A stretch of 60,068 nucleotides of DNA from a phage (PZ445425.1), one strand, 5' to 3'. Positions 8,182 to 49,099 are shown, counted from the first letter of the stretch. The notes: generated by a model not told the origin, from the sequence alone. Program-made: numbers and translations.

Positions 8182-9105
8182 ATGGCTACAGGTTCACGTT
8201 ATTCGTGTTATTACGTCAAAGAAGATGTGAGCAACACAACTCCAGCAAGCGCGGAGTTTACCCCGTTTCGTGTAACGAGTTCCGGTCTGGATATTAACAT
8301 TGCGACGCTGGAGTCTGAAGAACTGCGTGATGACGCAGAAACCGCAGACTTCCGTCTTGGCGCTCGAAGCGTTGAAGGTACGGTAACGGGCGAAATGTCC
8401 TTCGGTACGTTTGACGACCTCATTGCGGCAGCACTGCGCGGTAAATGGCAGGACAACGTTCTTAAAGGTGGTATTGTCCGCCAGTCGTTTACTTTTGTAG
8501 ACTATAACGCAGATCTGCCATCAGGTAAATACACAATCTATCGCGGTTGTGAAGTTAACAGCATGACTTTCTCATTGTCTGCTGAAAACATGACCACAGT
8601 AGAGTTCGGCATTGTTGGTCGCTCGATGGAAATTGCGGAATCGCTTCCTGCTGGTGCTTCCATCAAAGCTCGTACAACTTCTTCACCGATGGACGGCTTC
8701 TCCGGTTGCTTGCTGGAAGACGGTCAAGAGATTAGCGTTATTACGGAAATCGGTCTTACCGTTGAAAACGATATCTCTCCGCGCTTCGTTGTTGGCTCGA
8801 AGTTCTCCATTGAACCGTCTGCTGGTCGTCGTGCTGTAACTGGTACAGCTAACGTTTACTTCCTGGATAACAAACTGCGTAAGAAGTATCTGGATGAAGT
8901 GGAAACTTCAATCGAGTTTGATCTGATTGACCCAAGCAACCCGCAACAAAAATACACTGTGGAAATCCCTCGCGTGAAATTCACTGAAGCTCCGCGTCCT
9001 ATTGACGGTGAAGGCGATATCATGCTTAATATGGGCTACCGCGGATTGCTGGACCCAACAACCGCAAGTTCCATCAAAATTACCCGCGTTTTAGCGGCAG
9101 CATAA
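8182..9105 (+). CDS. major tail (tube) protein
   Basis: 307-aa ORF immediately upstream of the chaperone/frameshift/tape-measure trio. Confidence 0.6.
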   Translation: MATGSRYSCYYVKEDVSNTTPASAEFTPFRVTSSGLDINIATLESEELRDDAETADFRLGARSVEGTVTGEMSFGTFDDLIAAALRGKWQDNVLKGGIVRQSFTFVDYNADLPSGKYTIYRGCEVNSMTFSLSAENMTTVEFGIVGRSMEIAESLPAGASIKARTTSSPMDGFSGCLLEDGQEISVITEIGLTVENDISPRFVVGSKFSIEPSAGRRAVTGTANVYFLDNKLRKKYLDEVETSIEFDLIDPSNPQQKYTVEIPRVKFTEAPRPIDGEGDIMLNMGYRGLLDPTTASSIKITRVLAAA

Positions 9106-9114
9106 GGATAAGAA

Positions 9115-9522
9115 ATGACCGACACCAAAAAAGGCAAAGTTGCAGTAGCTAAAAGCTTCCGTGATTTTAAAACTGTGAGCCGGGCAAACGACCCGGCAAA
9201 CACTAAGCCCATGAATGTGGTTATTCCTGGTGTAGGCGACACTGGCGAAAAACTCTACATTCGTAGCCGCTACTGCACAGAGTATCGTGACGCAGAATTG
9301 AAAGCACAGCGTCAACTGTTGGCGCTTATGCAGGGTAAAGACGGTGAAGTAACAGATGCTATGAAGGAAGACATCCTTACCCGTTCGCTGTGTAACCTTG
9401 TAGCAGGTTGGACCTTTGATGAGCCTCCAACCGTTGACAACGTGTTTGAATTCTTAACGGAGAACCCAACTGTTCGAGAAGACCTTAACGTATTTGCCGC
9501 TAAAGATAGTAATTTTTTCTAA
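9115..9522 (+). CDS. tail assembly chaperone (G-like)
   Basis: 135-aa ORF ending in NFF-stop with a slippery heptamer at its 3' end; upstream of tape measure. Confidence 0.6.
   Translation: MTDTKKGKVAVAKSFRDFKTVSRANDPANTKPMNVVIPGVGDTGEKLYIRSRYCTEYRDAELKAQRQLLALMQGKDGEVTDAMKEDILTRSLCNLVAGWTFDEPPTVDNVFEFLTENPTVREDLNVFAAKDSNFF
9513..9519 (+). promoter_or_regulatory. -1 frameshift slippery heptamer T_TTT_TTC
   Basis: TTTTTTC fits X_XXY_YYZ in the chaperone frame, 1 nt before its stop; the -1 frame is open from 9513 to the stop at 9918-9920. Confidence 0.6.
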
Positions 9523-9920
9523 AAGCGCGCAGACAGTTAATTGATAAGAAGATCCTCCAATGGGAACTAAATAGCAAAGTCCCCGGCGGGGGATCTTCTT
9601 TATTATCGCAACTGCAAAAGGTTGAGGAACAGTCTGGTAAGACGCCACCTAAGCTTAAAGAATATCGGGAAAAGGAAATACCGATTTGCTTTGAATACCT
9701 GTCTACTTTATTTGATGACATTTACACTGGAGGGGATTTTAGTTATACAGAATTGCACAGCTATCAGGTAACAATGGGCTTACATCTTCAACCGTACGAA
9801 TGCGAAATACTGCGACAGCTATGGCTTGAAAAGCGCGTGTCTGAAGCTGAACAAAATGCTAAACTCATGGAAAGTCAAATGCAGAATCTGAATAAAGGTA
9901 GAAGGAAAAGGAGAAGGTAA
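9513..9920 (+). CDS. -1 frame extension giving chaperone GT-like fusion
   Basis: Frame open 9513..9917 with no canonical start; ends in a KGRRKRRR tail with stop overlapping the tape-measure ATG. Confidence 0.5.
   Translation, partial: FFLKARRQLIDKKILQWELNSKVPGGGSSLLSQLQKVEEQSGKTPPKLKEYREKEIPICFEYLSTLFDDIYTGGDFSYTELHSYQVTMGLHLQPYECEILRQLWLEKRVSEAEQNAKLMESQMQNLNKGRRKRRR
9546..9600 (+). promoter_or_regulatory. long hairpin inside the frameshift extension
   Basis: aagaagatcc ... ggatcttctt inverted repeat about 26 nt downstream of the slippery site; possible frameshift stimulator or attenuator. Confidence 0.4.
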
Positions 9921-12900
9921 TGGCCGAAACTGCTTCGCTAGTAATCAGGGTTGACGCGAAAGGGATTAGCACAGCGGACTCCATGCTGCGTAACCTTGCG
10001 CGTACAGGTGACACAGCGGAGCGTTCCGCTCAACGTGTCACATCCAGCTATAAGACATTGTCTAACGCATCTAACGAACTTGCAACTGTCACAAGTCGTT
10101 TAGATGCTGCAATTGTAGGAATGATTAGCGTCGACACCATTAACCGTGTTATTTCGCTATCGGACTCCTGGACTATCCTCACCAACAAACTTGAACTGGC
10201 TCGTACGGGTAATGAAACCGTTGCGGATGCACAGCAACGCGTGTTTGATATTGCCCAGCGGTCACGTACAAGCTTGGAAGCAACTGCAACTCTATATTCC
10301 CGTCTCCAGCGTGCAATGAAGAATACTGGTATGACAGGTATGGAGCTCGTGCGCATCACTGAAACAATCAACAAAGCAATGATCGTTTCTGGTGCAACGT
10401 CCCACGAAGCAAGTGCTGCTCTTATTCAGTTTTCGCAAGCGATGGCATCCGGTGTTTTGCGCGGGGATGAATTCCGATCTGTTGCGGAACAAGCTCCGCG
10501 CTTAACTCAAATCATGTCCGATTCGTTAGGCGTTACCATTGGACAATTGCGTGAGCTGGCCTACAGCGGCAAGTTAACCTCAGATGTGGTTATCAAATCG
10601 TTGTCTGGTGCTGCGGATACAATTGATAAAGAATTTAGCCGCACTATGCCAACGTTCAACCAGCAATGGACAGTTGCAACAAACAACCTCACTAAGTTTA
10701 TGGGCGAATCCCAAAAGACTCAAGGTGCGGTTGCTGCATTGGGTCAGACGTTTGTTGCGTTATCCAAAAACTTAGGAACGGTTGTAACAGTTGGTTCAGC
10801 TTTAGCCACAGTAATTACCGCCCGTATCATTACGGCAATGCTTGCTAAGACTAAAGCGTCTATAGCTGCTGCAAAAGCATCGCAGATGGAAGCTGCACAA
10901 ACGGCGGCAACTACTGCGGTGATGCAAAGCTCTATTGGCGTTACCGCGCAGAAAGCGGCTGCGGATCGTGCTGCTTCTCTTGCAGCGTTACAGGTTGCTC
11001 GCGGGTCATTAGCGGTTGCTAAAGGTACGGCAGCGGAAGCAGGCGCACGTCTTGCGCTTATTAACGCTACCCGTGCGCATTCTGCGGCAATTATGGCGGA
11101 CGTGCAAGCGCGGCAAGCGCTCAATGCTGCACTTAATGCAACTGTACCAGCCGCAAGCCGGGCAGCTACAGCAATGAGCGTGCTGCGCGGTGCTATGGGG
11201 TTAATTGGCGGTCCTGTTGGTGTAGCAATGCTGGCAGCGGGTGCAATTTACTCTTATAAAGCATCGCTGGAAGCTGGTCGTGCGGAAAACAATCAGTTTG
11301 CGGATAGTGTTGATTCTGTACGCGAGAAACTGATGCAGATGACAGAAGCTCAGTTGGCAGCTAACGCAGTTAAAGCTCGCGCAATCCTCCCCGAACTTGA
11401 AGAGCAAATGAAGCGGGAGCAAACTGCTCTTAAATCTGCAACGGAAACGCAGAAGTTCTATGAAGCACAATTAAAACGTCGTGCTGCGTCCGGTCGCGAT
11501 ACAGCTAGTGCCGAGAAGAACTTACAAATTGCAACGGATAACGTTAAGCTTGCTGCCGAGCGTGCTGAAGAAGCTCAACGCCGTTATAACAATGTCCTAG
11601 AAATGACAAGCCCTGCTATCGAGAAGATAATTCCGTTAGCTCGTCAGCTTGCTGCTGATATGAAGGCTGTTCTTAACATTAAATCAGGTCCACTTATTGA
11701 CGAGAAAGTCCTTGACCGTTTTAAAGGTCGGCTAGGTGATGTCAACCGTGAGATTGATGTTAACACGGTTAAGGGTGCTGGCAATGCTCGCCAAGCTGCA
11801 ATCCTTAGTGGACTGTATCAGACGCTGGGCAAGGATGCGGATACATACGGAAGTCTTATTCGCAAAGTAGCTATGGGCCAGGACGTTAGCTCAGAGGCAA
11901 CAAGCGAATCCGCTAAAGAGCTTGTTAAATATGCTCAAGATTTAGCGCAAGCTCTTGGCAAAAACTACGATCTTGAAGAAGCAGAGAGAAACCGGACTAA
12001 AGCTACAAAAGACGGTATTAAAGCAGAACAACAGAACGCCAAAGTTATTGACGATTTACGCAACAAGCTTAACGAAGTAACCACAGGAGTTAAGGAAAAC
12101 GCCAAAGCAAAAGCTCAAGCTGTGGCTTTAAACAAGCTCAATACGTCTGCAACTGCCGCGGAAAAAGCAGAAGTTATGAGTCTTGCTGCTGCGATTTATG
12201 AAGCGGAAGAAGCTCAAAAGAAACTGGACGAGCGTAAAAAGAATCGTAAAGTTGCTCAAGGTCTGTTAGATGAAGGTATGACGGACTATGAAAAAATCGC
12301 GTATGAGCAAAATACTAAGATTGCAGATCTTAATGCAAAACAACGGGCGGATGATTTAGCTTACTATCAGCTTTACGAAGATGCTAAAACCCAAGTGCTG
12401 AAAAAAGCAAGCATGGAAAGGGAAAACCTGGATAAAGTTCTTATGAACCGAATGATATCCTTTTCTCAGGAATCCTTAGGCATTATAATGGATGGGCTGT
12501 CACAGGCTGTAAGCCAGCAGAACTTCTTTTATAAAGCTATGTTTGCAGCACAGAAAGCAATGCAAATCCCATCAATCCTTGCCAACACGGAAACGGCAGC
12601 ATCTGCGGCGCTTGCATGGGGTACACAGCAAGGCGGTGCCACGATGGGTGCAACAATGGCGGCTATAGTGAAAACTATGGGTTATGCGTCCGCTGCCACT
12701 GTGGGTGGCTTAGCGATTGCTGGTATGGCTCACGACGGTATTGATAACGTTCCGCGTGAAGGTACATGGTTGCTGGATAAGGGTGAACGTGTACTTAATG
12801 CTCCGTCTAATGACAAGTTAAATCGCTTCCTGGATAGCCAAGCTTCACAACAAGGTGGCGTGAATATGTCCGGTGGTGTTAGCATTGTTCAGTATATCAC

Positions 12901-13036
12901 GGTGCAAGGAAATGGTGATGCAGCACTCACACAAGCCATGCAAAAAGCGGCCCGTGATGGCGCTGAGCAGGGATATAATAAAGTTCTTAATGACTTTGCA
13001 TCCCGAGGAACAATTCGTAGAACTGCAATGGGGTAA
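9920..13036 (+). CDS. tail tape measure protein
   Basis: 1038-aa Ala/Gln-rich largely helical protein right after the chaperone pair. Confidence 0.85.
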   Translation: MAETASLVIRVDAKGISTADSMLRNLARTGDTAERSAQRVTSSYKTLSNASNELATVTSRLDAAIVGMISVDTINRVISLSDSWTILTNKLELARTGNETVADAQQRVFDIAQRSRTSLEATATLYSRLQRAMKNTGMTGMELVRITETINKAMIVSGATSHEASAALIQFSQAMASGVLRGDEFRSVAEQAPRLTQIMSDSLGVTIGQLRELAYSGKLTSDVVIKSLSGAADTIDKEFSRTMPTFNQQWTVATNNLTKFMGESQKTQGAVAALGQTFVALSKNLGTVVTVGSALATVITARIITAMLAKTKASIAAAKASQMEAAQTAATTAVMQSSIGVTAQKAAADRAASLAALQVARGSLAVAKGTAAEAGARLALINATRAHSAAIMADVQARQALNAALNATVPAASRAATAMSVLRGAMGLIGGPVGVAMLAAGAIYSYKASLEAGRAENNQFADSVDSVREKLMQMTEAQLAANAVKARAILPELEEQMKREQTALKSATETQKFYEAQLKRRAASGRDTASAEKNLQIATDNVKLAAERAEEAQRRYNNVLEMTSPAIEKIIPLARQLAADMKAVLNIKSGPLIDEKVLDRFKGRLGDVNREIDVNTVKGAGNARQAAILSGLYQTLGKDADTYGSLIRKVAMGQDVSSEATSESAKELVKYAQDLAQALGKNYDLEEAERNRTKATKDGIKAEQQNAKVIDDLRNKLNEVTTGVKENAKAKAQAVALNKLNTSATAAEKAEVMSLAAAIYEAEEAQKKLDERKKNRKVAQGLLDEGMTDYEKIAYEQNTKIADLNAKQRADDLAYYQLYEDAKTQVLKKASMERENLDKVLMNRMISFSQESLGIIMDGLSQAVSQQNFFYKAMFAAQKAMQIPSILANTETAASAALAWGTQQGGATMGATMAAIVKTMGYASAATVGGLAIAGMAHDGIDNVPREGTWLLDKGERVLNAPSNDKLNRFLDSQASQQGGVNMSGGVSIVQYITVQGNGDAALTQAMQKAARDGAEQGYNKVLNDFASRGTIRRTAMG

Positions 13037-48355: not shown

Positions 48356-49099
48356 TTATTGCGGAGTTGTGATAATATGGTTACTAACTTCTAACATAAC
48401 GTCCTGCGGCTCCCTTCCCTGTCTTAAGCTAATAAGCCAATTATCAATGTTCGGAAGAATATTTTTAGCCTGCTCAGCATCCCTGTATAGTGCAAGGTCT
48501 ACCCAATGAGCGCCGAGCTTGACACGGATAGCGGTAGCGGTTTCATAATGGTGCAGGGAACAGGTAGGCCAGCGACCGCGATTATCCCAGTCCCGAACAT
48601 CGCCGCTCCGGCGCATCCTGTACCAACGATGTGTCAATTTATCCGCTTCCTTATCTGTCAGAGGATCCCCTTTGAGCAAGGCTTGGCGCTCTATCCATGC
48701 TTTAAGCTCGACGTTTTCCTTGCGTCCCGCCTTACCCTTATCTTCTTTTACCTTAAATGCTTCTTCATATGGGTCGTTACCCTTGCCCATGTGGTAATTG
48801 AATTTGCCCGTATAGCTGCGAAGCTCTTTGGCATCCAGATCATGACCCAGCTTATCGCTAACCCATGCAAGGAAAGCCGCCCTTTCTGCATCCAGCTTTC
48901 CCGCTTTTTGTCTTACAGCTTTTTTAACAGGCTGTTCCACATCTTCGTTGAAGTAATCCTCCACCATAGCAAGTGCCTGTGATTTGGTTGGCGCACCGCG
49001 CAACTGCGAGCAAGCTTGCACAACCCAGGCAGCAAAACACAAATCTTTAACCACAGTTTTAGATGTTAATGGTGCGGATGTGATAGTTTCTTCGCTCAT
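48356..49099 (-). CDS. hypothetical protein (possible replication initiation factor)
   Basis: 247-aa ORF immediately downstream of the iteron/AT-rich region. Confidence 0.45.
   Translation of the reverse strand: MSEETITSAPLTSKTVVKDLCFAAWVVQACSQLRGAPTKSQALAMVEDYFNEDVEQPVKKAVRQKAGKLDAERAAFLAWVSDKLGHDLDAKELRSYTGKFNYHMGKGNDPYEEAFKVKEDKGKAGRKENVELKAWIERQALLKGDPLTDKEADKLTHRWYRMRRSGDVRDWDNRGRWPTCSLHHYETATAIRVKLGAHWVDLALYRDAEQAKNILPNIDNWLISLRQGREPQDVMLEVSNHIITTPQ

What the first reader, a model, noticed from the sequence alone, without database searches (positions are those of the whole stretch)
9513..9920. Programmed -1 frameshift in the tail assembly chaperone
A perfect X_XXY_YYZ heptamer (T_TTT_TTC) sits 1 nt before the chaperone stop. 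The -1 frame is open from exactly that point for 135 codons and ends at the tape-measure ATG. A long hairpin lies 26 nt downstream. This is the conserved G/GT arrangement of long-tailed phages.
Basis: partly seen in the sequence, partly recalled or inferred. Interest (0 to 1): 0.4.

Follow-up and report, generated by a model that had tools for sequence, protein, structure and literature searches.

The report
Tail chaperone G/GT −1 frameshift site
This is the ordinary, already annotated programmed −1 ribosomal frameshift that lets a Seurat-like E. coli phage make a short and a long tail assembly chaperone from one gene; the only unusual point is a conserved RNA hairpin that lies too far downstream to be a classical stimulator.

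Summary
The window is a Seuratvirus (Queuovirinae) coliphage. The chaperone ORF 9115-9522 ends AAT TTT TTC TAA. The in-phase heptamer T_TTT_TTC (9513-9519) is exactly the 7-nt overlap between that ORF and a −1 frame. That frame is closed by TAA at 9510-9512 and then open for 135 codons, up to TAA 9918-9920, which overlaps the tape-measure ATG at 9920.

The −1 stretch has no start codon for 78 codons, yet it evolves as coding sequence. It matches Pfam Phage_TAC_18. Together with the upstream ORF it is collinear with one PHROG family profile.

All 38 related loci (19 non-redundant, about 11 clades, down to about 20% protein identity) keep an in-phase T_TTT_TTC or T_TTT_TTA/T_TTA_AAG in the overlap. 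Both motif classes are among the most efficient in E. coli.

The GenBank records of phages Seurat and SA80RD already annotate this ribosomal slippage at the homologous base, so the finding is known and ordinary.

The hairpin (9542-9605) is real and under selection at synonymous sites. It starts 22-31 nt after the heptamer, so it is not a canonical stimulator, and its role is open. No experimental evidence exists for this phage group.

The parts
8182..9105 (+). Major tail tube protein gene (upstream synteny marker)
   Evidence: Pfam PF18906 Phage_tube_2, E 1.9e-43; PHROG 290.
9115..9522 (+). Tail assembly chaperone G ORF (135 aa, zero frame), SD AAGGA 9104-9108, stop TAA 9520-9522
   Evidence: ORF and translation. 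PHROG 569 E 4e-25 and PHROG 313 'tail assembly chaperone' E 3.6e-11. Pfam Phage_TAC_4 is sub-threshold for this sequence (E 0.051), but 6 of 11 diverged homologues hit it at E <= 0.01 (best 9e-5).
9510..9512 (+). Last stop codon (TAA) of the -1 frame upstream of the slip site; with the G stop it confines the frame change to 9513-9519
   Evidence: -1 frame stops at 9501, 9507 and 9510, then none until 9918.
9513..9519 (+). Slippery heptamer T_TTT_TTC (P site TTT 9514-9516, A site TTC 9517-9519), immediately followed by the zero-frame stop
   Evidence: Conserved in phase in 38 of 38 related loci. U_UU.U_UU.C is among the efficient E. coli motifs (PMC4066793). Seurat's annotated slippage position maps to window 9516.
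9519..9920 (+). T extension read in the -1 frame (133 codons 9519-9917 plus stop TAA 9918-9920). The GT fusion = 9115..9519 joined to 9519..9920, 268 aa, junction ...AAKDSNFF|LKARRQ...
   Evidence: Fusion translation. Pfam PF23812 Phage_TAC_18 E 2.2e-9, 37.8 bits against a cut-off of 27. PHROG 569 positions 130-256, E 4.6e-46. Third-position substitution bias in 9522-9773: 3/4/19 against Skure, 17/7/39 against STP-SP5. Homology begins at the first codon after the heptamer. No ATG/GTG/TTG before codon 79.
9542..9605 (+). Long three-tier RNA hairpin: 5' arm 9542-9558, 3' arm 9588-9605, inner helices 9561-9564/9582-9585 and 9566-9568/9578-9580. It lies inside the T coding region, 22 nt after the heptamer (GC-rich core 31 nt after)
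   Evidence: z -4.4 and -3.1 against dinucleotide shuffles. z -3.3 against synonymous recodings. More structured than all 12 control windows of the locus. Both arms are invariant, including synonymous sites, across Seuratvirus members that are 68-74% identical over this region. No Rfam family.
9579..9594 (+). Alternative small GC hairpin (CCCC-GGCG-GGGG) followed by a T-rich tail; terminator-like, and mutually exclusive with the long hairpin
   Evidence: Consensus scan. The number of such sites in the region is not above the shuffles, and relatives such as 9g lack a U tail, so this is weak.
9908..9913 (+). Shine-Dalgarno AAGGAG of the tape measure gene, embedded in the codons for the basic C-terminal tail (GRRKRRR) of GT
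   Evidence: Sequence. Seurat's annotated RBS maps to window 9909-9913.
9920..13036 (+). Tape measure protein gene (downstream synteny marker); its ATG overlaps the GT stop (TAATG)
   Evidence: Pfam PF20155 TMP_3 E 3.8e-60; PHROG 339 E 1e-180.

Best explanation
Most ribosomes translating the chaperone gene (9115-9522) terminate at TAA 9520 and release the 135-aa chaperone G.

A minority slip back one base when tRNA-Phe occupies TTT (P site, 9514-9516) and TTC (A site, 9517-9519). The tRNAs re-pair with TTT TTT (9513-9518). Alternatively the P-site tRNA-Phe alone slips from TTC to TTT while the slowly decoded TAA sits in the A site; both routes give the same protein.

These ribosomes read on from CTA 9519 in the -1 frame for 133 more codons and stop at TAA 9918-9920, making a 268-aa GT fusion (...DSNFF-LKARRQ...).

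By analogy with lambda gpG/gpGT, the shared G part binds the tape measure protein encoded immediately downstream. The T part recruits the tail tube protein encoded immediately upstream. The fixed low GT:G ratio is what the frameshift provides. Neither protein is expected in the virion.

Shown here: the anatomy, coding selection in the -1 frame, family membership, and conservation of the slippery site across distant relatives.

Inferred: that the fusion is actually made, its ratio, the binding partners, and that the slip is ribosomal rather than transcriptional.

The conserved hairpin at 9542-9605 is under selection, but at 22-31 nt it is too far away to touch a ribosome sitting on the heptamer. 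Its role (indirect stimulation, mRNA stability or processing) is not established.
For: - The overlap of the two frames is exactly the heptamer, so the frame change can only happen there.
- Synteny is tube-G-T-TMP.
- G and the extension match positions 11-126 and 130-256 of the single PHROG 569 profile. The extension passes the Pfam Phage_TAC_18 gathering score. Six of 11 G homologues hit Phage_TAC_4.
- 9522-9773 has no start codon but shows third-position substitution bias in the -1 frame: 3/4/19, 17/7/39 and 32/15/40.
- Protein homology across clades starts at the first codon after the heptamer.
- There is no conserved start plus SD for the -1 ORF in any of the 19 non-redundant relatives.
- All 38 loci keep an in-phase T_TTT_TTC or T_TTT_TTA/T_TTA_AAG. 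Meanwhile the preceding codon changes (AAT or CTT), the first -1 codon changes (CTA, CAA, CGG, CGC) and the distance to the G stop varies from 0 to 33 codons.
- U_UU.U_UU.C and U_UU.A_AA.G are in the most efficient motif classes in E. coli, and U_UU.U_UU.C is listed among the motifs depleted from E. coli genes (PMC4066793).
- The site is unique within the window.
- Independent annotators placed ribosomal slippage at the homologous base in Seurat and SA80RD.
- The lambda G/GT mechanism and the 30:1 ratio come from the review PMC5009743.
Against: - There is no experimental evidence for this phage group. The papers on Vid5 and EC151 do not mention a frameshift, and the existing support is annotation only.
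- There is no classical stimulator at 5-9 nt, and no SD-like element is visible 6-17 nt upstream (read from the sequence). Efficiency therefore cannot be predicted.
- The fold of G could not be confirmed: the single-sequence AlphaFold model had pLDDT 43, and no relative has a solved structure.
- A T6 run could in principle also give the same protein through RNA polymerase slippage.
Confidence: 0.88

Rival explanations
1. Transcriptional slippage. RNA polymerase adds one extra U at the T6 run (9513-9518), so a fraction of the mRNAs carry G and T in one frame. Standard translation then yields the same NFFLK junction.
For: The T6 run itself is invariant in all 38 loci, including those where position 7 is A. 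The protein product would be identical, so nothing at the protein level distinguishes the two mechanisms. Slippage on homopolymer runs is an established route to fusion proteins (review PMC5009743).
Against: Six bases is short. From my own knowledge, bacterial RNA polymerase slippage used for gene expression needs runs of about 8-9 or more A/T. Position 7 stays C (or A followed by AAG, which creates a second efficient ribosomal heptamer T_TTA_AAG) rather than T. A T there would lengthen the run and would be synonymous in the zero frame. The motifs found are exactly those ranked efficient for ribosomal slippage in E. coli.
Confidence: 0.05
2. Two separate genes. The downstream ORF is translated on its own from an internal start (TTG 9753 or ATG 9774 here, as annotated in VogelGryff, CSP1C and Skure; an ATG/TTG at codon 17 in 9g, Vid5, EC151 and yong3). 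No frameshift is needed.
For: Several GenBank records annotate it this way. A weak AGGT lies 4 nt before ATG 9774. Codon 17 is ATG or TTG in about 12 of the 19 non-redundant relatives.
Against: In this window the first possible start is codon 79. That leaves a 48-55-aa peptide lacking most of the region matched by Phage_TAC_18 (residues 35-104). The 250 nt upstream of that start evolve as coding sequence in the -1 frame, and homology begins at the heptamer. Codon 17 is CTA here, and it has no SD in any relative. PHROG 569 is a family of fused proteins collinear with G plus the extension.
Confidence: 0.03
3. The hairpin at 9542-9605 is the frameshift stimulator in the classical sense: it blocks the ribosome that sits on the heptamer.
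For: The hairpin is strong and selected. z is -3.3 against synonymous recodings. The windows after the heptamer average z -2.39 against -0.57 for 213 control windows, p = 6e-6. Every clade has some structure downstream. In the Pseudomonas and Alteromonas relatives the stem starts 6-7 nt after the heptamer, which is the classical distance.
Against: In this window and in the enterobacterial clades with a clear stem, that stem starts 21-35 nt after the heptamer. That is about 16 nt beyond the mRNA entrance of a ribosome whose P site is on TTT 9514. Reported optima are 5-9 nt, and a change of 2 nt can cost 5-fold (PMC3458567). The stems of different clades are not in register, and RNAalifold finds no consensus on the codon-register alignment.
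Confidence: 0.12
4. The hairpin is an mRNA-level element unrelated to recoding: a 3'-end protecting, processing or weak terminator element. It would keep the abundant tube/G message separate from the much less needed tape measure message, and it sits in a stretch that few ribosomes traverse.
For: Most ribosomes stop at 9520, so the structure can form. A terminator-like alternative fold with a T-rich tail lies at 9579-9594. There is strong nucleotide-level conservation of both arms. The stoichiometry argument (many tube copies, few tape measure copies) comes from general knowledge of siphophage tails.
Against: The count of terminator-like sites is not above shuffles. Relatives such as 9g have the hairpin without a U tail. 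The tape measure and all distal tail genes lie downstream and must still be transcribed. There are no transcript data.
Confidence: 0.25

Closest known systems
Phage lambda gpG/gpGT programmed -1 frameshift (Levin, Hendrix & Casjens 1993; Xu, Hendrix & Duda 2004, 2013, 2014; summarised in PMC5009743)
   Same: Two overlapping ORFs lie between the major tail protein gene and the tape measure gene. The second ORF is in the -1 frame without its own start. An in-phase X_XXY_YYZ heptamer sits near the end of the first ORF, and no classical downstream stimulator is needed. A short product and a fusion product share the N-terminal part.
   Different: The heptamer is T_TTT_TTC rather than G_GGA_AAG. It abuts the zero-frame stop, and the overlap is only 7 nt. 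The proteins are not detectably similar to gpG/gpT at the sequence level here (they match Pfam TAC_4 weakly and TAC_18). A conserved distal hairpin is present.
Annotated 'tape measure chaperone' with ribosomal slippage in Escherichia phage Seurat (KM236243, CPT_Seurat13/14) and vB_EcoS_SA80RD (OL960575)
   Same: This is the homologous locus, 95.7-96.5% identical in DNA, with the same coordinates after offset. The slippage is annotated at the base that equals window 9516.
   Different: Nothing of substance. Those records carry no experimental support and do not mention the hairpin.
Classical bacterial -1 PRF cassettes (IS3/IS911 orfAB, dnaX)
   Same: A slippery heptamer from the efficient E. 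coli classes. U_UU.U_UU.C is itself used by some IS elements (PMC4066793).
   Different: Those cassettes have a hairpin or pseudoknot 5-9 nt downstream and/or an SD-like element upstream. Here the structure is 22-31 nt away and no upstream SD is visible.
Collision-stimulated -1 frameshifting (Smith et al. 2019, PMC6815119)
   Same: The distance from the heptamer to the GC-rich core of the hairpin is close to one ribosome footprint plus a classical spacer. In that study, a ribosome stalled 9 codons ahead doubled slippage of the trailing ribosome.
   Different: Here zero-frame ribosomes terminate before they reach the hairpin, so only ribosomes that have already shifted could act as the roadblock. 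This is a resemblance in geometry only and was not tested.

Membership tests
G/GT tail assembly chaperone frameshift of long-tailed phages (Xu, Hendrix & Duda 2004) | Two ORFs located between the major tail (tube) protein gene and the tape measure protein gene | tested here: met
   8182-9105 is PF18906 Phage_tube_2. 9920-13036 is PF20155 TMP_3. G and T lie between them.
G/GT tail assembly chaperone frameshift of long-tailed phages (Xu, Hendrix & Duda 2004) | The second ORF overlaps the end of the first in the -1 frame and lacks its own start signal | tested here: met
   The overlap is 7 nt. The -1 frame is open from 9513 to 9917. The first ATG/GTG/TTG is at codon 79, and no conserved start plus SD exists in 19 relatives.
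G/GT tail assembly chaperone frameshift of long-tailed phages (Xu, Hendrix & Duda 2004) | An in-phase slippery sequence inside the overlap, conserved among relatives | tested here: met
   T_TTT_TTC at 9513-9519. 38 of 38 loci have T_TTT_TTC or T_TTT_TTA/T_TTA_AAG(C) in phase.
G/GT tail assembly chaperone frameshift of long-tailed phages (Xu, Hendrix & Duda 2004) | The extension is a conserved protein domain under purifying selection from the slip site onward | tested here: met
   Codon-position bias. The alignment starts at the first codon after the heptamer. PF23812 is above its threshold.
G/GT tail assembly chaperone frameshift of long-tailed phages (Xu, Hendrix & Duda 2004) | The first ORF belongs to a tail assembly chaperone family | tested here: met
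   PHROG 313 'tail assembly chaperone' E 3.6e-11 and PHROG 569 E 4e-25. Caveat: Pfam Phage_TAC_4 is below its threshold for this sequence (14.2 bits against 21.1), although 6 of 11 homologues hit it at E <= 0.01.
G/GT tail assembly chaperone frameshift of long-tailed phages (Xu, Hendrix & Duda 2004) | A chaperone fold like that of known G proteins | tested here: inconclusive
   The single-sequence AlphaFold2 model has mean pLDDT 42.7 and is not usable. There is no significant PDB relative by sequence or by profile.
G/GT tail assembly chaperone frameshift of long-tailed phages (Xu, Hendrix & Duda 2004) | The fusion protein is actually produced at a low fixed ratio and is required for tail assembly | not testable with these tools
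   This needs mass spectrometry or Western blots and slippery-site mutants. No publication on this phage group reports it.
Classical -1 PRF cassette (heptamer + 5-9 nt spacer + downstream structure, or upstream SD) | A stimulatory structure starting 5-9 nt after the heptamer | tested here: not met
   The stem starts 22 nt after the heptamer (core 31 nt) in the window, and 21-35 nt in the enterobacterial clades with a clear stem. It is met only in the Pseudomonas and Alteromonas relatives, at 6-7 nt.
Classical -1 PRF cassette (heptamer + 5-9 nt spacer + downstream structure, or upstream SD) | An SD-like element 6-17 nt upstream of the heptamer | tested here: not met
   9496-9507 reads GCCGCTAAAGAT, with no GGAG, AGGA or GAGG (read from the sequence).
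Programmed transcriptional slippage site | A homopolymeric A or T run long enough for RNA polymerase slippage (about 8-9 or more, from my own knowledge) | tested here: not met
   The run is T6 in all 38 loci, and position 7 is C or A, never T.

The most novel reading that the evidence does not exclude
The distal hairpin may be a second, non-classical layer of control of the GT:G ratio.

In the enterobacterial clades with a clear stem, its strong part begins 21-35 nt after the heptamer. In the Pseudomonas and Alteromonas relatives the stem begins at the classical 6-7 nt. The difference is about one ribosome footprint.

A ribosome that has already shifted and is held up by the hairpin could therefore act as the roadblock for the next ribosome sitting on T_TTT_TTC. 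That would make frameshifting depend on ribosome load, or come in bursts.

Alternatively the hairpin sets the relative stability of the tube/G message versus the tape-measure message.

The evidence shows only that the structure is selected at this position. It does not show what the structure does.
Probability: 0.15. Interest if true: 0.5.

Novelty: already known. Interest (0 to 1): 0.15.

Why it matters
For this genome the value is practical. The roughly 400 nt between the chaperone stop and the tape measure gene should be annotated as the -1 extension of a 268-aa GT fusion. Most close relatives in GenBank instead leave a gap, call a 48-70-aa ORF, or label it 'tail length tape measure protein'.

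Biologically it adds one more lineage to a very widespread and well-understood device. That lineage is Queuovirinae and its neighbours, with an unusually strict T_TTT_TTC site kept over very deep divergence.

The only open question of wider interest is why a strongly selected hairpin sits about one ribosome length downstream of the slip site.

Tried and rejected
- RNAalifold on the codon-register alignment of 16 diverged sequences gave no consensus pairs. The hairpins of different clades are therefore not positionally homologous, and I make no claim of classical covariation. I replaced that test with synonymous-recoding z-scores and locus-internal controls.
- The single-sequence AlphaFold2 model of the GT fusion had pLDDT 43, so I ran no fold search on it.
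- PDB sequence and profile searches gave only chance-level hits: Rof, a designed repeat protein and DNMT3B.
- NCBIfam gave nothing above its cut-offs.
- Rfam gave no family at gathering score. Sub-threshold matches were generic miRNA-precursor-like hairpins and unrelated small RNAs.
- The first search for related loci attempt, with a 12-sequence alignment, was too diverse to run. A 6-sequence alignment worked.
- The terminator reading of 9579-9594 was considered and down-weighted: the site count is not above shuffles, and the U tail is absent in other clades.
- The other in-phase heptamer with a long -1 extension at + 48668 lies in an ORF antisense to a longer ORF. I rejected it as a gene feature.
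- Literature searches for any description of this frameshift in Seuratvirus, Vid5 or EC151 found none.

Full report
**What the window is.** The 2.3 kb around the finding is 94-97% identical to Seurat/CAjan-like E. coli siphophages (genus Seuratvirus, subfamily Queuovirinae). 34 phage records cover at least 80% of it.

**Check of the observation.**
- I read the sequence and recomputed frames, stops and translations.
- The chaperone ORF runs from ATG 9115 to TAA 9520-9522 (135 aa). Its last zero-frame codons are GAT AGT AAT TTT TTC TAA.
- T_TTT_TTC therefore occupies 9513-9519 in the X_XXY_YYZ phase and is directly followed by the stop.
- The -1 frame has stops at 9501, 9507 and 9510, and then none until TAA 9918-9920. 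That gives 135 open codons from 9513, as claimed.
- The stop shares A9920 with the ATG of the 1038-aa tape measure ORF (9920-13036).
- The overlap of the two frames is exactly the heptamer, so a frame change can only occur there.
- The +1 frame is closed at 9542.
- The -1 frame has no ATG, GTG or TTG until TTG 9753 and ATG 9774.
- 81 in-phase heptamers lie in the 179 long ORFs of the window. This is the only one at an ORF's end with a -1 extension of more than 100 codons.

**What the proteins are.**
- The upstream gene (8182-9105) is a Phage_tube_2 tail tube protein. The downstream gene is a TMP_3 tape measure protein.
- The -1 extension passes the Pfam Phage_TAC_18 gathering score (E 2.2e-9).
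- The G ORF matches PHROG 313 "tail assembly chaperone" (3.6e-11) and PHROG 569 (4e-25).
- G covers positions 11-126 of the 256-position PHROG 569 profile and the extension covers positions 130-256 (E 4.6e-46). The two frames are therefore collinear with one protein family.
- Pfam Phage_TAC_4 is below its threshold for this G, but 6 of 11 diverged homologues hit it at E <= 0.01.
- Fold-level confirmation failed. The single-sequence model has pLDDT 43, and there is no solved relative.

**Is the -1 stretch translated, and from where?**
- Substitutions in 9522-9773 (the part without any start codon) concentrate at the third position of the -1 frame. The counts are 3/4/19 against Skure (87% identical), 17/7/39 against STP-SP5 (74%) and 32/15/40 against yong3 (68%). 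The G ORF shows the same pattern in its own frame (identities, substitution counts).
- In a 12-sequence protein alignment spanning Seuratvirus, Nonagvirus, Vidquintavirus, Craquatrovirus, Amoyvirus and Pseudomonas phages, similarity begins at the first codon after the heptamer (LKARRQLI / LRSREKLI / QIARKQLI).
- No relative has a conserved start codon with a Shine-Dalgarno sequence. Codon 17 is ATG or TTG in many relatives, but it has no SD and is CTA here.
- Independent initiation is therefore not a viable explanation for this window.

**Conservation of the slip site.**
- I examined 38 loci: GenBank phages and IMG/VR contigs. They reduce to 19 non-redundant sequences in about 11 clades.
- Every one has an in-phase T_TTT_TTC in the G/-1 overlap. 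In the EC151/K4PH164/L032 group it is T_TTT_TTA overlapping T_TTA_AAG or T_TTA_AAC.
- This holds while the preceding codon changes (AAT or CTT), the first -1 codon changes (CTA, CAA, CGG, CGC), the distance to the G stop varies from 0 to 33 codons, and the proteins fall to about 20% identity.
- In every locus the -1 ORF (117-154 codons) ends at or near the tape measure start.
- Sharma et al. 2014 (PMC4066793) measured all heptamers in E. coli. H_HH.U_UU.Y (which includes U_UU.U_UU.C) and U_UU.A_AA.G are among the most efficient classes. U_UU.U_UU.C shifts at more than 0.1% without a stimulator, is under-represented in genes and is used by some IS elements. The tetramer ranking is A_AA.G >> U_UU.C > U_UU.U.
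- That ranking fits the strict retention of C at position 7, which is synonymous in the zero frame and is not needed for any particular amino acid in the -1 frame.

**Prior knowledge.**
That base corresponds to window 9516. SA80RD has the same annotation.
- Other relatives annotate a 48-aa ORF (VogelGryff, CSP1C), a TTG-start ORF (Skure) or nothing at all (RCIP0359, OddieOddie).
- I found no paper that discusses or tests the frameshift in this group.
- The mechanism and role of lambda G/GT (ratio about 30:1; G binds the tape measure; T binds the tube protein; neither is in virions) are as summarised in PMC5009743.

**The hairpin: strength and conservation.**
- It is real. 9542-9558 pairs with 9588-9605, with two inner helices. 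The MFE is -33.7 kcal/mol and z = -4.4.
- Both arms are invariant, including synonymous sites, in Seuratvirus members that are only 68-74% identical over this region. An example is the 20-nt CCCGGCGGGGGATCTTCTTT.
- Other clades have different stems at about the same place. Examples are CUUACUGCUCG/CGGGCAGUAAG in 9g and GUUGCUCCA/UGGAGCAAC in EC151.
- These stems are not in register. RNAalifold finds no consensus on the codon-register alignment, so I do not claim classical covariation.
- Instead I compared each native sequence with recodings that keep the -1 peptide. 18 of 19 are more stable than their recodings, and eight have z <= -2.5.
- As a control, 213 other 96-nt coding windows from the same loci average z = -0.57, while the window after the heptamer averages -2.39 (Mann-Whitney p = 6e-6). 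In 5 of 11 clades it is the most structured window tested.
- Structure downstream of the slip site is therefore selected.

**The hairpin: spacing and possible role.**
- In the enterobacterial clades with a clear stem, it begins 21-35 nt after the heptamer: 22 nt here, and 31 nt to the GC-rich core. In the Pseudomonas and Alteromonas relatives it begins at 6-7 nt.
- Classical stimulators work at 5-9 nt, and a change of 2 nt can cost 5-fold (PMC3458567).
- A ribosome with its P site on 9514 does not reach 9542. In this window zero-frame ribosomes stop at 9520, so only shifted ribosomes ever meet the hairpin.
- Its role is therefore open. I considered four possibilities:
  - a classical stimulator (unlikely);
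  - stimulation through a queued ribosome, since Smith et al. 2019 found a 2-fold effect with an optimum of 27 nt (PMC6815119), which is a resemblance in geometry only;
  - an mRNA stability or processing element;
  - a weak terminator, based on the alternative fold at 9579-9594 with a T-rich tail, which is not above shuffles and is not conserved in 9g.
- Rfam has no matching family.

**Rivals.**
- Transcriptional slippage at T6 would give the same protein and cannot be excluded from sequence alone. However, the run is short, and the motif pattern fits ribosomal slippage.
- Separate initiation of T is contradicted.

**Verdict.** The feature is the classical G/GT frameshift and is already annotated at the homologous base in Seurat, so novelty and interest are low. 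The conserved distal hairpin is a modest, untested curiosity.

Noticed in passing
window 9900-9922: The codons for the basic C-terminal tail of the GT fusion (KGRRKRRR: AGA AGG AAA AGG AGA AGG) also form the Shine-Dalgarno region (AAGGAG 9908-9913) of the tape measure gene. The GT stop and the tape measure start overlap as TAATG.
   Followed up: partly
window 9522-9920 and the homologous loci L002, L003, L004, L038, L040: Annotation of this stretch in GenBank relatives is inconsistent: a joined CDS with slippage (Seurat, SA80RD), a 48-aa or 70-aa ORF (VogelGryff, CSP1C, Skure), or an unannotated ~400-nt gap (RCIP0359, OddieOddie). PHROG 569, which is made of the fused chaperones, is labelled 'tail length tape measure protein', and that name appears on the chaperone ORFs in several RefSeq records.
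   Followed up: yes
L012:1147-1210, L013:1141-1220, L014:1144-1190: In the distant Pseudomonas and Alteromonas relatives the same T_TTT_TTC heptamer is followed by a hairpin at the classical 6-7 nt, and the G ORF continues 12-33 codons past the heptamer. In the enterobacterial clades with a clear stem, the stem is 21-35 nt away. The two spacing classes differ by about one ribosome footprint.
   Followed up: partly
window 9525-9530 (GCGCGC), also L005, L006, L007: A GCGCGC hexamer lies 5 nt after the heptamer (codons GCG CGC for Ala-Arg in the -1 frame). It is identical, including third positions, in Seuratvirus members and in Pantoea phage Vid5, whose extension is only 39% identical in protein. 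9g and EC151 have CCCGCG at nearly the same place. It sits where the mRNA entrance of a ribosome on the heptamer would be. Its significance is unknown.
   Followed up: no
window 9271-9390 (G residues 53-92): A very weak similarity of the chaperone to Rof, the Rho-binding antiterminator (PDB 8ptm E 0.43; NCBIfam NF008636 E 0.015, 15.5 bits against a cut-off of 117). This is most likely chance.
   Followed up: no
window 48668 (+) and reverse-complement coordinate 30149 (-): These are the only other in-phase heptamers whose -1 frame runs 50 or more codons past the zero-frame stop. CCCTTTG at 48668 lies in a + strand ORF that is antisense to a longer - strand ORF (48356-49099), so it is not in a real gene. 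The - strand TTTAAAA case was not examined.
   Followed up: partly
whole window versus GenBank: Phages named for Aeromonas schubertii (SD04) and Cronobacter sakazakii (CSP1) are 94-96% identical to these E. coli phages in this region. This suggests either a broad host range or doubtful host labels.
   Followed up: no
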